This document shows positions 57 to 54,896 of a DNA stretch of 64,000 nt, one piece after another (the first letter of the stretch is position 1; each line of letters opens with the position of its first letter). The position numbers and the translations under genes are program-made. This DNA is from Eledone cirrhosa (taxonomy: Eukaryota), in assembly GCA_964016885.1 (NCBI GenBank), contig OZ024745.1:30256001-30320000 (forward strand), written 5' to 3'. The notes under the pieces are model-generated. The model had not been told where the DNA came from, did no database searches, and was given only the letters and a program-made list of their open reading frames with translations.

Positions 57-104
57 CTTTTTCCTTTATCATCTCTTCTTTTATTGCAGCCACAGCTATG
101 GCTT
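57..104 (-). CDS. Microexon A1 (48 nt, phase 1-1), peptide EAIAVAAIKEEMIKEK
   Basis: Minus strand TTAATTTTTTTAACATCAG|AAGCCATAGC...GGAAAAAG|GTATGT; length multiple of 3; no stop; homologous to 19 other exons. Confidence 0.8.
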
Positions 105-1151
105 CTGATGTTAAAAAAATTAACACAATGTCTTACATATCATTTGAAACAACATAACACATTGACATTATATATTTCTACTACATTGTACCTGCTTTTT
201 GAAACTTATCAGTCATTTATTGCATATTTCACAGTAAGTATATTAACTATACTACTACTATATATATGAGTATATACATTGTATATATGGATTGAAAAAG
301 TAGCAGGAGAAATGAAATATTTGGAATGAATGAACAAAGAATGAAGTTTCCTCTTAAGCCACCCATGGGCAATGCAATTTCATGCCAAAAGTGTTACTTT
401 TAATATTGAGCCCAGATTGTATAACAGCTTAGAGAAAGCCATTGGAAAGATGTATATGAGACAATACAGTATAGAAAGAGAGGACAACATATACATATAT
501 CCTCTGTTATGTGGTAGTGCTGGTGCCATGAAAAATGACATCCAGTCAATCATGTAAAGTGTGAGTGCTAGTGTTATGACAAAAAACACTCAGTTCATTT
601 TGTAAAATCAAACAGTCGGAGTCATGATAAAATGCTACTGGTATACATCGTTAACTAGTTGATAGTAGGGAGGGCATCCAGCTTTAAAAACAATGTCAGA
701 TGGAACATATGAGCAAAATACAGGCATCTGATCTGCCTAACCAGCCTCAGTAGGTGGCAAGAAGTCTATCCCTTGCAAGCATAGAAAATAGACATAAAAT
801 GATAATGGTAATAATTGTTTCTACGTTTGGCACAAGGCCATCAATTATCCAGTGCATTACTGGTACTTTATTTTATCGACCTCGTAAGGATGAAAGGCAA
901 AGTCAACCTCGGCGGGATTTGAACTCAGATCGTAAAGGGACGTAACTATGCTGGAAAGCATGGCGTCCGACCCTCTACCGATACTGCCAATCCTCCGCCC
1001 TTATAATAATGGTAATAATGATGATAATGGTAATAATGATGAAGATATATATATATATATATATCATCATCATCATCATCATTTTACGTCCGTTGTTCTC
1101 TGCTTGCAAAATATATATATATATACATTATAAACATTATATTCAACATAC

Positions 1152-1202
1152 CATCTTCAGGTGTCAGCATTCCTTCTTTTTTCAAAGTAGCAATTAGGTT
1201 TT
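1152..1202 (-). CDS. Microexon B1 (51 nt), ENLIATLKKEGMLTPED
   Basis: CACATTAG|AAAACCTA...GAAGATG|GTATGT; phase 1-1, open. Confidence 0.8.
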
Positions 1203-1868
1203 CTAATGTGAAAGGAAAAAATTAACAGAATAGCTTACATTTCATTAGAAACAACATATTACATTGACTTTCCCCTCCTCATATTATATATATATATATA
1301 TATGTATAGTACCATAACTCCTGGTAGAGTTGTAAAGATGTTATAGTGACACAGCATATCTGGGGCATTTTGTTGGTTGAGCCCATCCCTTCTCTAAAGC
1401 TGAATATAACATATTCTCCCAGAGAAGAAGAGAAAGCACGAGAGAAAGGAAGTAAAAAAGAGTTATAGAGGAAGGATCATCTCCCTTGGCAAGATGAAAA
1501 GAAAAGTTGACTTCAGCAGGATTTGGACTCACTACTCATTTGAGTTGGAAGAAGAAATCCTGCTAAGCCTATCGAATGTTCCAACAACTGCCAATTTATG
1601 GCCTATGTTACACACATATATATATATATATATATATATATATATATATATATATATATATATATACATACATTATATTAATAAATGGAAACTATATTTC
1701 ATCATCATCATCATCATCATCATCGTTTAATGTCAACTTTCCACGCTAGCATGGGTTTAGATGGTAATTGTCCCACTTGAGGCAAGATTGATCGTCTCGC
1801 CTCGTATAGGACTGTCTGGCAGGTTTTCTACGGTTGGATGCCCTTGCTAACACCAACCACGTTTACTT

Positions 1869-1934
1869 TATTTTATTATATATATTTCAAGGGCAACCAA
1901 GGCAAATTATGGTGTGCTTTCATCAGATAAAATA
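1869..1934 (-). ncRNA. Minimal type I hammerhead ribozyme (PLE-type)
   Basis: TATTTTAT-CTGATGA-stem II-GAAA-TATATATA-ATAAAATA. Confidence 0.6.
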
Positions 1935-2022
1935 CACATTTGTTTTATATATAAATATTGACATATCAGTCATAAAAATGTTTAAGCTTGTTGAATCCCA
2001 ACAAATTAAATATAACCTCTGC

Positions 2023-2400
2023 ATATATATATATATGTGTGTATATATATATATATATATATATATATATATATATATATATATATATATATATATATAT
2101 GTATATATATATATATATGTATATATATATATATATGTATATATATATATATATGTATATATATATATATGTATATATATATATATGTATATATATATAT
2201 ATATATGTATATATATATATATATATATATATATATATGTATATATATGTATATGTATATATATATATATATATATGTATATGTATATATATATATATAT
2301 ATATATATATATATATATATGTATATGTATATATATATATATATATATATATATGTATATATATATATATGTATATATATATATATATATATATATATAT
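2023..2400. repeat. (TA)n-rich microsatellite, representative of dozens in the window
   Basis: Direct observation. Confidence 0.95.
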
Positions 2401-2461
2401 AAAATATTAAAAAAATAATGAATAAAACAATGAAACAGTTCCTTATATTAAACAAAAAAAG

Positions 2462-2615
2462 TTCATTATTTAACGATCGTTTCTGGGATATATATGTGTT
2501 AGAATTGGCATGTATATTTAACAGATCTATGTACAAAATTATACAAAATTATACAAACTATCAAAATTAAATATACATACCAACTCATATATATGCCGTC
2601 TTCAGAAATAATGAA
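2462..2615 (-). ncRNA. Type I hammerhead ribozyme with long stem II
   Basis: Inverted copy of 7747-7900. Confidence 0.75.
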
Positions 2616-51895: not shown

Positions 51896-52526
51896 TTTAA
51901 ATATATATATATATATATATATATATATATATATATATATATATATTTATGCATGGTCCTACAACTCCTGTTTGATTTGTAGCGATGCTATACTAACACA
52001 TAATTTCTGGGGTATTTTGTTTAAACCTAGTGGGGCCTATCCCTTCTTCAGATCTGAATATAGCATATTCTTCCAGAGAAGGAGAGAGAGCATGAGAGAA
52101 AGAAAGTAAAAAAGAGTTATAGAGGAAGAATCATATATATATATATATATATGCTATAATATGGTAGTGCTGGTGACATGAAAAAAGCATGCAGTCCACT
52201 TGGTAAAGTGTGAGTTTTGGTGCTATGACAAAAGAACAAAACAAAACGCCATGACCTTATTGTTCGGAGGTAGCACTGGTGCCATGACAAAAAGCACCTA
52301 GTTCAGTCTGTTAGATGGTACTGCCAGAGTCATGATAAAATGCTACTGGTACATGTCGTTAACTAGTTGATATTGGGAAGGGCATCCAGCTTTAAAACCA
52401 ATGCCAGAATCGAATGTCATCTGATCTTATTAACTAGTTACAGAAGGTGACAACAGATCTAATCCATGTAAGTATGGAAAATAATCATAAAATGATAATT
52501 GTAATAATGATCAGGATATATGTATA

Positions 52527-52989
52527 TCATCATCATCATCGTTTAACGTCCATCTTCCACGCTAGCATGGGTTTGGACGGGAGTTTTCCCACTTGAGGCA
52601 AGAGTGGTTGTCTTGCTCACATAGGACTGTCTGGCGGGTTTTCTATAGCTGGATGCCCTTCCTAACACCAACCACATTTACAGTGTGGACTGGGAGGTTT
52701 TTACCGTGTTACCTACATGGCCACATTACAGCGTGGACTGTGTTTTTTTTTGTCGTGACACCAACACGACCTCATTTATTTCGGACTGGATGTTGTGGTA
52801 CCAACATAACTTTACATTGAAAGGGGTGGTGTGGATGGGTGGGGGTAGTGGGACGGGGGTGTATTTTTGTTAGAGGTGCCTACTGACTGTAGTAGGTTTC
52901 ACTTTGTACTTAGGTAAGGCGGGTGTTCTGTATTACTGTGTAGCGCCAAAGATCTCGGTCCAGTGACATTGTCTTGGAGAGGTGTAAGT
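52527..52989 (-). mobile_element. RTE 3' fragment
   Basis: [14 protein letters not shown] plus UTR and (ATC)n. Confidence 0.8.
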
Positions 52990-53633
52990 ATATATATATA
53001 TATATATATATATTGTATATGTATATATATGTATAGTATATGTATGTATATGTATATATATATATATATATTGTATATATATATATATATATTGTATATA
53101 TATATATATATTGTATATGTATATATATATATTGTATATGTATATATATATATTGTATATGTATATATATATATATTGTATATGTATATATATATATATT
53201 GTATATGTATATATATATATATTGTATATGTATATATATATATATTGTATATGTATATATATTGTATATGTATATATATATATTGTATATGTATATATAT
53301 ATTGTATATGTATATATATGTATTGTATATGTATATATATGTATAGTATATGTATATATATATATATTGTATATATATTGTATATGTATATATATATATA
53401 TTGTATATGGATATATATATTGTATATGTATATATATATATATATATATATATATATATATATATATATATATATATATATATATATATATACAGTATTT
53501 TCCGTTGTGTTGTAATATAAATATTACACACAGTAGATTATGTATATATATATATATATATATATATATATATATATATATATATATACATACACACACA
53601 TATATATATATATGTAAATTATATTAAACATAC

Positions 53634-53681
53634 CTTTTTCCTTCATCATCTCTTCTTTTATTGCAGCCACAGCTATGACTT
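53634..53681 (-). CDS. Microexon A3 (48 nt), EVIAVAAIKEEMMKEK
   Basis: CATCAG|...|GTATGT; paralog of A1/A2. Confidence 0.8.
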
Positions 53682-54408
53682 CTGATGTTAAAAAAATTAA
53701 CACAATGTCTTACATATCATTTGAAACAACATAATACATTGACATTATATATTTCTACTACATTGTACCTGCTTTTTGAAACTTATCAGTCTTTTATTAC
53801 ATATCTCACAGTAAGTATATTAACTATACTACTACTATATATATGAGTATATACATTGTATATATGGATTGAAAAAGTAGCAGGAGAAATGACATATTTG
53901 GAATGAACAAACAAAAGAATGAAGTTTCCTCTTCAGCCACACATGGGCAATGCAATTTCATGCCAAAAGTGTTATTTTTAATATTGAGCCCAGATTGCAT
54001 AACAGCTTAGAGCAAGCCACTGGAAAGATGTATATGAGACAATACAGCATAGAAACAGAGGATAACATATACATATATCCTCTGTTATGTGGTAGTGCTG
54101 GTGCCATGAAAAATGCCATCCAGTCAATCATATAAAGTGTGAGTGCTAGTGTTATGACAAAAAACACAGTCCATTCTGTAAGATCAAACTGTCAGAGTCA
54201 TGATAACATGATACTGGTATACATCGTTAGCTAGTTGATAGTAGGGAGGGCATCCAGCTTTAAAAACAATGTCAGATGGAACATATGAGCAAATGACAGG
54301 CGTCTGATCTGCCTAACCAGCCTCAGAAGGTGACAAGAAGTCTAAACCCTGCAAGCATAGAAAATAGACATAAAATGATAATGGTAATAATGATAAAGAT
54401 ATATTTTT

Positions 54409-54747
54409 CATCATTCATTTCATTTTACGTCCGCTTTTTCCCTGCTTGCAAGAGTGGGACGGGAACTGATTCTGGCTTTATTTCTACAGCTGGATGCCCT
54501 TCCTAACACCAACCTCATTTACAGTGAGTGCTGGGTGCTTTTTTGCCGTGGCACCTACATGACCACTTTGCAGTGGAATGATATGGACCTCAGTCCCTAT
54601 CATCTCATTTCTACAGCTGAGTAAACTGGAGCAATGTGAAATAAAGTGTCTTGCTCAAAGAAACAACACATCACCCGGTCTGAGAATTGAACTCACAACT
54701 TTTCGATTGCAAAGCCAATGCTCTAACCACTAAGCCATGTGCCTCCA
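54409..54747 (-). mobile_element. tRNA-headed SINE with RTE-derived 3' tail
   Basis: Reverse complement of 54934-55278. Confidence 0.8.
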
Positions 54748-54845
54748 CATATATATATATATAATCATCATCATCAGCATCAATTTACGTCCACTTTTCC
54801 CTGCTTGCAAGATATATATATATATATAAATTATATTCAACATAC

Positions 54846-54896
54846 CGTCTTCAGGTGGCAGCATTCCTTCTCTTTTCAAAGTAGCAATTTGATTTT
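54846..54896 (-). CDS. Microexon B3 (51 nt), ENQIATLKREGMLPPED
   Basis: CATTAG|...|GTATGT; paralog of B1/B2. Confidence 0.8.

What the first reader, a model, noticed from the sequence alone, without database searches (positions are those of the whole stretch)
57..54896. Hidden minus-strand array of 20 symmetric microexons encoding a modular repeat protein
Seen: 20 homologous 45/48/51-nt segments, each with a T-rich tract + YAG, a GTA(T/C)GT donor, a length divisible by 3, phase 1-1 and no stop. Only ~1 kb of exon is spread over 55 kb of transposon-rich introns. Spliced 5'->3' they read ENQIATLKREGMLPPED|EVIAVAAIKEEMMKEK|DIILRGAKKKRLRTQEN|EILAAAKTKVLETKK|DVLLDAIKTGVITPEE|EILIMAATEKGMLSAEE|EVLFAAAKVGRLLPTEE|EKLIAGFERKGVLTREE|GIKLVTSREKVKLTPED|ENLIATLKKKGMLTPED|... 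with no stop at any junction. Inference: all 20 keep frame and both splice sites while flanking introns accumulate indels, which implies a functional gene. Any subset of exons can be skipped in frame, so this may be a combinatorial splicing system analogous to schistosome micro-exon genes or titin PEVK exons. I do not recognise the protein; start and stop exons lie outside the window.
Basis: partly seen in the sequence, partly recalled or inferred. Interest (0 to 1): 0.92.

Follow-up and report, generated by a model that had tools for sequence, protein, structure and literature searches.

The report
167 tandem microexons in octopod gene
The twenty tiny exons are part of a run of 167, arranged as eighteen copies of a nine-exon block in the middle of one intact octopus-type gene, where they would add about 2,770 repeating amino acids to a protein of unknown function; their DNA looks strongly preserved for coding, but no RNA was available to show how they are spliced.

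Summary
Confirmed, and larger than reported. The 20 minus-strand segments are exons 71-90 of an array of 167 intact 45/48/51-nt phase 1-1 exons spanning 475 kb. 162 of them run in strict order as 18 copies of a nine-exon, 149/150-aa block. The family occurs at this locus only. It sits inside a modelled 193-exon, 724-kb gene with one 4,912-aa frame, collinear with an Octopus bimaculoides protein (1,681 aa) that has about 220 low-complexity residues at that place. Coding is strongly favoured: 0 stops (about 25 expected), 0 frameshifts (about 19), no lost AG/GT. Amino-acid sites diverge faster than introns (0.130 vs 0.072), while 36 of 141 positions stay fixed. There is no signal peptide, so it is not a schistosome MEG; it is not PEVK or nebulin either. 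Best reading: a nebulin/titin-like super-repeat spacer, spliced mostly in order, in an intracellular structural protein. Combinatorial splicing is possible in frame but unsupported; no RNA run was listed. The scan noted other tandem microexon arrays in other genomes, none resembling this sequence.

The parts
54846..54896 (-). array exon 71 of 167, class A, 51 nt
53634..53681 (-). array exon 72, class B, 48 nt
48364..48414 (-). array exon 73, class C, 51 nt
39954..39998 (-). array exon 74, class D, 45 nt
38183..38230 (-). array exon 75, class E, 48 nt
35849..35899 (-). array exon 76, class F, 51 nt (GTACGT donor)
34106..34156 (-). array exon 77, class G, 51 nt
32955..33005 (-). array exon 78, class H, 51 nt
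31277..31327 (-). array exon 79, class I, 51 nt
26851..26901 (-). array exon 80, class A, 51 nt
26000..26047 (-). array exon 81, class B, 48 nt
24342..24392 (-). array exon 82, class C, 51 nt
22387..22431 (-). array exon 83, class D, 45 nt
21453..21500 (-). array exon 84, class E, 48 nt (ends in A, so the junction codon is Lys)
19197..19247 (-). array exon 85, class F, 51 nt (GTACGT donor)
17713..17763 (-). array exon 86, class G, 51 nt
16557..16607 (-). array exon 87, class H, 51 nt
14575..14625 (-). array exon 88, class I, 51 nt
1152..1202 (-). array exon 89, class A, 51 nt
57..104 (-). array exon 90, class B, 48 nt
1..64000 (-). the whole window is intron and exon sequence from the middle of the host gene (window = G000:C5:30256001-30320000; array C5:30518794 to 30043598; modelled gene C5:30743696, ATG, to 30019221, stop)
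15317..35236 (.). block-duplication trace: 15317-18806 matches 31802-35236 (91.8%) and 18528-21584 matches 35236-38314 (84%), introns included, one nine-exon period apart

Best explanation
The segments are true coding exons of one single-copy octopod gene. Its modelled product is a ~4,900-aa intracellular protein: a small HEAT/ARM-like module near the N-terminus, a 1,039-codon Lys/Glu-rich exon with its own 20-aa tandem repeat, the microexon array, and a conserved C-terminal part. History (inferred): one ~51-nt phase 1-1 exon with its splice flanks was duplicated into nine types. The nine-exon block was then copied to 18 units by unequal crossing-over, and transposons later inflated the introns. 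Use (inferred): the exons are spliced mostly in order, perhaps with skipping that tunes length. The result is a chain of 18 super-repeats of 149/150 aa, each of nine ~16.5-aa modules (hydrophobic stretch, basic patch, then often G-x-L-T/S-x-E-E, which looks like a helix end and the next helix cap). It would act as an extensible spacer, ruler or multivalent scaffold, in the manner of nebulin super-repeats or titin PEVK. My guess for the setting is a cytoskeletal structure of sperm or testis (about 40%), from its size, charge and fast evolution only. Shown: exon anatomy, order, host gene collinearity, selection. Inferred: splicing pattern, fold, tissue, function.
For: 167 intact exons among 177 profile hits in 864 kb, all AG..GT, all multiples of 3, none with a stop. 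162 consecutive exons each match their expected class, 0 out of order. Over 18 units: 0 stops vs about 25 expected (P about 1e-11); 2 gap patterns in exons, both 3 nt, vs 142 in flanks, 109 of them frame-shifting; 0 AG/GT changes vs about 43 at the exon rate. 0 frameshifts vs about 19 expected from introns. Neutral simulations gave at least 14 stop codons in all 200 runs. 36 of 141 columns are invariant vs 12.2 +/- 3.7 simulated, maximum 24 of 200. Synonymous variation occurs in 10 of those 36 and in 35 of the 105 others, so the constraint looks to be on the protein. About 61 stretches of 150 nt or more of shared intron are missing in one unit or another, yet no exon is (crude count). Host gene: 193 exons, one 4,912-aa frame, matching O. 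bimaculoides UniRef A0A0L8H5Y7 in three collinear blocks on both sides of the array. Hydropathy periods of 8.3 and 16.6 residues.
Against: No transcript evidence at all. In-register block duplication would keep the nine-exon order even without selection on it. The orthologue models in O. bimaculoides show no such array, so in-order use cannot be checked there. The gene also reads open without the array (2,144 codons), so skipping it entirely is possible. Six small linking exons were chosen on weak similarity and phase fit. Amino-acid change faster than introns (pN 0.130 vs 0.072) is not what a passive spacer predicts. The fold of the repeat was not predicted. Tissue and partners are untested.
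Confidence: 0.62

Rival explanations
1. Combinatorial cassette splicing: transcripts carry different subsets of the 167 exons and so make a large pool of variants, with diversifying selection on the modules, as in schistosome MEGs.
For: All 13,861 forward junctions are in frame and stop-free. 148 distinct peptides among 167 exons. pN exceeds intron divergence in 151 of 153 unit pairs and pS in 146 of 153. Omega is 1.50 and 1.78 under MG models, better than omega = 1 (2 x delta lnL 10.7 and 22.6). Acceptors are A/T-rich; only 26 of 167 exons passed a strict generic splice filter.
Against: No dead exon in register among 162; rarely used cassettes should tolerate some decay (inference). Class-specific fixed residues and a constant 149/150-aa unit point to a structural unit. 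No signal peptide or membrane segment, so the product is not obviously exposed. Omega is 1.06 and 1.17 under GY models; the one GY test against omega = 1 was not significant.
Confidence: 0.22
2. Mutually exclusive choice (Dscam-like): each transcript uses one exon, or one block, of the array.
For: Many homologous exons share a conserved 60-nt upstream flank. The orthologue has only about 220 residues at this place.
Against: Introns are 693 nt or longer, so no steric exclusion. The six commonest flank 12-mers have no exact complement in the upstream or downstream introns searched, and only one in the array. All exons are symmetric and can be chained. A nine-exon period has no evident role under this model.
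Confidence: 0.07
3. A non-coding dispersed repeat, transposon relic or dead duplicated exon array inside an intron.
For: No RNA seen. Amino-acid changes are not suppressed on average (omega at or above 1).
Against: The absence of stops, frameshifts and splice-site loss is incompatible with neutrality. The family is confined to one locus and one strand: 42 of 42 genome-wide pattern matches lie in the array. It is in phase with both flanks of an intact gene.
Confidence: 0.03

Closest known systems
Nebulin super-repeats (vertebrate NEB)
   Same: A long chain of simple repeats grouped into super-repeats: 21-31 super-repeats of seven in nebulin, with copy number changed by unequal recombination (PMC7863720, passages read). 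Here 18 of nine.
   Different: No sequence or Pfam match. Modules are ~16.5 aa (nebulin's are about 35, recalled). No SH3 domain found. Amino-acid sites here diverge faster than introns.
Titin PEVK region (vertebrate TTN)
   Same: More than 100 short exons in the low-complexity middle of a giant protein (113 annotated in human), tandem duplication with LINEs in introns, some codons under positive selection (PMC6469411, passages read).
   Different: PEVK fraction 0.40 and proline 2.5%, below the 0.54 threshold used there. 44% hydrophobic. Exons are shorter (45-51 vs a mean of 76-93 nt) and strictly periodic. No Ig, Fn3 or kinase hit in the parts scanned.
Schistosome micro-exon genes (MEGs)
   Same: Most coding sequence in small symmetric exons (8,310 of about 14,740 nt here), size within the 3-81 nt range, dN/dS near or above 1 (PMC4350168, PMC10526429, passages read).
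   Different: MEG products are small (longest 189 aa), secreted, with 10-20 exons, mostly 15 nt. This product is ~4,900 aa with no signal peptide and 167 mutually homologous exons. Its alternative splicing is unshown.
Teleost piccolo b zinc-finger exon amplification
   Same: Lineage-specific amplification of one exon inside an old gene by unequal crossover (PMC3484663, abstract and outline read).
   Different: 8-16 copies of a domain-sized exon added singly, against 167 microexons added in blocks of nine.
Octopus bimaculoides A0A0L8H5Y7 / XP_014775115 ('coiled-coil domain-containing protein 173-like') and Argonauta hians GAB1604762
   Same: Orthologues by collinear similarity, 33-39% identity in the aligned blocks.
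   Different: Their models lack the array; O. bimaculoides has about 220 Lys/Glu-rich residues there. None has a tested function, and the CCDC173 label is automatic.

Membership tests
Schistosome MEG | Most of the coding region in very small symmetric exons | tested here: met
   8,310 of about 14,740 coding nt lie in 45-51-nt phase 1-1 exons if all are used
Schistosome MEG | N-terminal signal peptide, secreted or membrane-anchored product | tested here: not met
   Best 9-residue hydropathy near the N-terminus 0.42; best 19-residue window in the model 1.67. The start Met is shared with the O. bimaculoides model. This is a hydropathy check, not a dedicated predictor.
Schistosome MEG | Alternative splicing yields a pool of variants | not testable with these tools
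   No RNA run available
Schistosome MEG | Restricted to flatworms; small proteins | tested here: not met
   The only relatives found are octopod proteins; model 4,912 aa
Titin PEVK | Pro+Glu+Val+Lys fraction of about 0.54 or more | tested here: not met
   0.40, proline 2.5%
Titin PEVK | Embedded in titin (Ig, Fn3, kinase domains) | tested here: not met
   No such Pfam family in P0001, P0002, P0003, P0004 or the full-length orthologue P0006
Titin PEVK | Many short tandem-duplicated exons in the low-complexity middle of a giant protein | tested here: met
Nebulin | Nebulin modules in seven-module super-repeats, C-terminal SH3 | tested here: not met
   Period is nine exons, 149/150 aa. No nebulin or SH3 hit in the flanking parts or orthologues. 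The exon profile had no solved-structure hit below E = 1.
Nebulin | Acts as an actin-filament ruler | not testable with these tools
   Needs localisation and binding assays
Mutually exclusive exon clusters (Dscam type) | Docking-selector base pairing or steric exclusion (feature recalled) | tested here: inconclusive
   No exact 12-mer complement of six conserved flank words in flanking introns; introns 693 nt or longer. Imperfect pairing was not searched.
WDR87/WDR97-like testis proteins (recalled resemblance) | N-terminal WD40 repeats | tested here: not met
   No WD40 hit in P0006. The model begins at a Met shared by both species. No unassigned long host-like frame seen by eye in the 76 kb upstream. 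Exons further upstream are not excluded.
CCDC173 (automatic RefSeq label of the orthologue) | Trichohyalin-plectin-homology domain (recalled) | tested here: not met
   No such Pfam hit in P0003 or P0006 at E up to 1
HEAT/ARM alpha-solenoids | Stacked helical hairpins | tested here: inconclusive
   Orthologue residues ~160-300 model as helical hairpins with pLDDT 60-90. Best Z 10.2, rmsd 3.0, 131 aligned, with many unrelated solenoids tied. Foldseek had no match at E <= 0.001. Pfam HEAT_2 E = 0.094. Generic fold only.

The most novel reading that the evidence does not exclude
The 167 exons are a regulated, combinatorially spliced module library under diversifying selection: an intracellular counterpart of MEG- or Dscam-type diversification that arose recently in one octopod lineage, with nine module types in 18 variant copies assembled differently by cell or tissue.
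Probability: 0.17. Interest if true: 0.88.

Novelty: new variant of a known kind. Interest (0 to 1): 0.64.

Why it matters
One-module-per-exon repeat genes are known. This one is extreme: 167 mutually homologous exons of 45-51 nt, all intact, in a clean 18 x 9 higher-order repeat, more than the 113 annotated human titin PEVK exons. It gives an 18-fold internal replicate for studying how super-repeats arise, and how a spliceosome handles a long run of near-identical weak microexons across 475 kb of transposon-rich introns. It also shows strict frame conservation beside amino-acid change that outpaces introns. The module matches nothing found here, and a gene like this is easily missed by annotation. 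If splicing proves combinatorial it would be a new protein-diversification system in cephalopods.

Tried and rejected
RNA: no RNA holder listed (only 28 sampled words, kind 'any'). Runs X1-X3 cover all 30 bins, introns included, so they behave as DNA; X4 is RAD-seq. None of the 15 joints shown (57 not shown) matches an exon-exon splice. This is no evidence on expression.

Family of the host gene: word-based searches found nothing for P0001 among 729-2,080-aa proteins, for P0006 1-330 among 924-2,942 aa, or for P0006 30-300 among 2,943-5,000 aa; these are weak negatives. The ESM Atlas gave SDA1/HEAT clusters below 0.9 and nothing for residues 30-110. No solved-structure hit for the N-terminal alignment. 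The model of the large 3' exon was low-confidence (mean pLDDT 48) and was not searched. Pfam hits of P0002 to AbiEi_4 and CM_2 have 0 passing stretches and are treated as repeat artefacts.

Homology between the microexon module and the 20-aa repeat of the large 5' exon, or the orthologue's Glu-rich repeats: rejected, scores 7.8-10.8 are within shuffled maxima (the unit-shuffle test there used a wrong 18-aa period and is ignored).

A link to RNA editing as the cause of fast change: A/G is 39% of single non-synonymous differences, and the A-G rate is lower in exons than in flanks; not supported. Conservative amino-acid changes are not enriched (0.36 vs 0.34 +/- 0.03).

Discarded computations: intron divergence was biased by masking and was replaced. 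Codon models with gamma rates fitted worse than without and were not used. One search picked a wrong 82-nt exon 6 and a 3-nt-short exon 13; both were corrected.

Literature: searches listed no paper on this gene or array; one search listed none at all. PMC11703226 and 10.64898/2026.09.05.749416 (passages read) were not relevant. (WDR87) was seen as a listing only.
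Full report
Observation. A direct scan of the minus strand recovers the 20 segments at the stated places. Joined, they give 993 nt and 330 aa without a stop in the phase 1-1 frame, with 40 and 20 stops in the other frames. The same filter gives 23 hits on the minus strand, 1 on the plus strand and about 0.8 per 64 kb outside the array. 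The exons share about 60 nt of upstream flank and 15-20 nt of downstream flank, and recur with a period of nine. Kilobase blocks one period apart align at 84-94%.

Extent. The window is G000:C5:30256001-30320000 in a 3.0-Gb genome. I fetched 900 kb around it. A profile of the 20 exons with flanks gave 177 hits in the first 864 kb: 167 intact minus-strand exons, 8 partial minus-strand hits and 2 weak plus-strand hits. The 167 comprise 111 of 51 nt, 43 of 48 nt and 13 of 45 nt; all have AG and GT and none has a stop. They span C5:30518794-30043598 (475 kb), with introns of 693-30,557 nt, median 1,825. Five divergent exons lead. The next 162 each match the class expected from their position, giving 18 copies of nine classes; complete A-to-I units encode 149 or 150 aa and occupy 17.6-32.1 kb. 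The window holds exons 71-90. A 24-nt exon-end pattern has 42 matches in the genome, all in the array and on the minus strand, with 0 for the reversed control. A DNA search gave 45 matches, 43 in the array and 2 short flank-only matches on another contig, with 40 of 136 candidates scored. It is therefore a single-locus family, not a transposon.

Host gene. A 416-codon frame 3' of the array had two hits among 1.84 billion representatives: E 2e-52 at 42% and E 7e-13 at 35%. They are an Octopus bimaculoides protein automatically named CCDC173-like and an Argonauta hians hypothetical protein; the first cluster includes the 1,681-aa A0A0L8H5Y7. That protein maps collinearly on the minus strand on both sides of the array. 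Following splice phases I modelled 17 exons before the array and 9 after it. The 193 exons span 724 kb and give one frame of 4,912 aa, or 2,144 codons without the array. The orthologue aligns at residues 1-578 (39%), 614-793 (37%) and 1014-1680 (33%); the array occupies about aa 1564-4333 of the model, opposite some 220 low-complexity residues (before two small exon corrections). Six short linking exons rest on phase fit and weak similarity and are inferred. The organism is inferred to be an octopod from these hits.

Protein. There is no signal peptide or clear membrane segment by hydropathy, and 9 Cys. No credible Pfam family was found. Orthologue residues ~160-300 model as helical hairpins (pLDDT 60-90; residues 1-160 under 50) that match many HEAT/ARM solenoids equally (best Z 10.2, rmsd 3.0, 131 aligned), which shows a generic fold only. 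One 3,118-nt 5' exon carries a separate 20-aa tandem repeat of about 30 copies, not detectably related to the microexon module. The array is rich in Glu, Lys, Ala and Leu and slightly acidic (469 K+R, 530 D+E), with hydropathy periods of 8.3 and 16.6 residues. Many modules end in G-x-L-T/S-x-E-E, which from general knowledge resembles a helix C-cap followed by an N-cap; this is inference. The spliced repeat was neither folded nor searched as a protein.

Selection on frame and splice sites. On a tree of the 18 units the exons carry about 500 substitutions (1.18 per site). Neutral expectation is about 25 stops and about 43 changes in AG/GT at the exon rate; none is seen. Flanks show 142 gap patterns, 109 not multiples of three; exons show 2, both of 3 nt. 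Intron indel rates predict about 19 frameshifts. All 200 neutral simulations gave 14 or more stop codons. 36 of 141 columns are invariant against 12.2 +/- 3.7 simulated, and they vary synonymously about as often as the rest (10 of 36 vs 35 of 105).

Fast amino-acid change. Mean divergence is 0.072 in introns, 0.087 at synonymous and 0.130 at non-synonymous sites; pN exceeds intron divergence in 151 of 153 pairs, which are not independent. Omega is 1.50, 1.78, 1.17 and 1.06 under four codon models; fixing it at 1 is rejected for the two MG models but not for GY+F1X4. Caveats: local alignment and young shared transposons can lower the intron figure, and identical exons in distant units point to conversion, which breaks the single-tree assumption. 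Diversifying selection is therefore likely but not established.

How it most likely works. The array is a lineage-specific insert in the variable middle of an old octopod gene, built by exon duplication and then block duplication. I favour mostly ordered inclusion (0.62). One stop would then destroy the whole protein, which explains why all 167 exons are intact. A constant nine-module unit with class-specific fixed residues is kept, although about 61 sizeable stretches of shared intron are missing from one unit or another (crude, non-independent count). The product would be a ~545-kDa intracellular spacer, ruler or scaffold. Combinatorial skipping (0.22) is fully allowed by the frame (0 stops in 13,861 junctions) and would fit the fast amino-acid change, but nothing shows it. 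Mutual exclusion (0.07) has no steric or exact-pairing support. A dead or non-coding array (0.03) is contradicted by the selection tests. The remainder covers readings not listed. A testis or sperm role is a guess from recalled properties of such proteins.

RNA. No RNA run could be examined, so splicing and expression are untested.

Comparison. It works most like nebulin (21-31 super-repeats of seven; PMC7863720, passages) and titin PEVK (113 annotated human exons, tandem duplication, some positive selection; PMC6469411, passages), but fails their sequence criteria (PEVK 0.40, proline 2.5%). It shares small symmetric exons and high dN/dS with schistosome MEGs (PMC4350168, PMC10526429, passages), but lacks their signal peptide and small size. 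Teleost piccolo b (PMC3484663, abstract and outline) is a smaller case of exon amplification. Five literature searches listed nothing on this gene or array; the library lacks most subscription papers and I read no supplements. The scan's own index had no notes on this genome and no look-alike of the exon or the 3' protein, but lists other tandem microexon arrays in other genomes; these are unchecked.

Verdict. A real feature and a new variant of a known kind: a one-module-per-exon super-repeat of unusual scale and regularity, in a gene of unknown function. Interest 0.64; 0.88 if combinatorial splicing is shown (probability about 0.17).

Noticed in passing
G000:C5:30542225-30630708 (L063-L072): An 88-kb satellite of 60-bp units (about 1,458 copies, 94% match) lies inside the host gene's intron just 5' of the array.
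   Followed up: no
G000:C5:30711010-30714127 (L080), minus: A 3,118-nt exon of the same gene holds a second, independent expansion: about 30 copies of a 20-aa Lys/Glu/Met-rich unit, where the orthologue has a few short Glu-rich repeats.
   Followed up: partly
G000:C5:29987168-30026870 (L054-L058): The gene's last small exons lie in a recent ~19-21-kb tandem duplication (98.6-99.4% identical), so the terminal exons exist twice; a real duplication or an assembly artefact.
   Followed up: partly
G000:C5:30028361-30028408 (L058), minus: A 48-nt phase 1-1 candidate exon with the array's donor signature whose acceptor lies in sequence that looks like an antisense RTE-type LINE remnant next to an LTR element; possibly an exon truncated by insertion and rescued by a transposon-derived acceptor.
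   Followed up: partly
G000:C5:30810528-30812093 (L090), minus: An intronless 522-codon frame for UTP-glucose-1-phosphate uridylyltransferase (Pfam UDPGP, E 8e-190), 67 kb upstream of the host gene on the same strand; probably a retrocopy.
   Followed up: partly
G000:C5:29981114-29981746 (L053), plus: A RhoGAP-domain exon (E 2e-23) of a convergent neighbour gene about 37 kb past the host gene's modelled stop.
   Followed up: partly
G000:C5:30089048, 30184213, 30115016, 30478492: Four partial, decayed copies of array exons or their flanks sit in introns out of register; none is an intact exon.
   Followed up: partly
G000:C5:30661000-30679000 (L075-L076): Three head-to-tail copies, about 6.3 kb apart, of a near-intact LINE-like element with long frames, inside the host gene's intron.
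   Followed up: no
window 8030-9415 (+), 61284-63749 (-), 56262-58484 (+): Intron-filling mobile elements: an RTE-like reverse transcriptase (Pfam RVT_1), an 821-codon frame that looks Penelope-like by eye but had no Pfam hit, and a GC-rich fragmented element of similar look.
   Followed up: partly
G000:C5:30497929-30498128 (L018): A 200-N assembly gap lies in the 30.6-kb intron between array exons 3 and 4, so further exons could be missing there.
   Followed up: no
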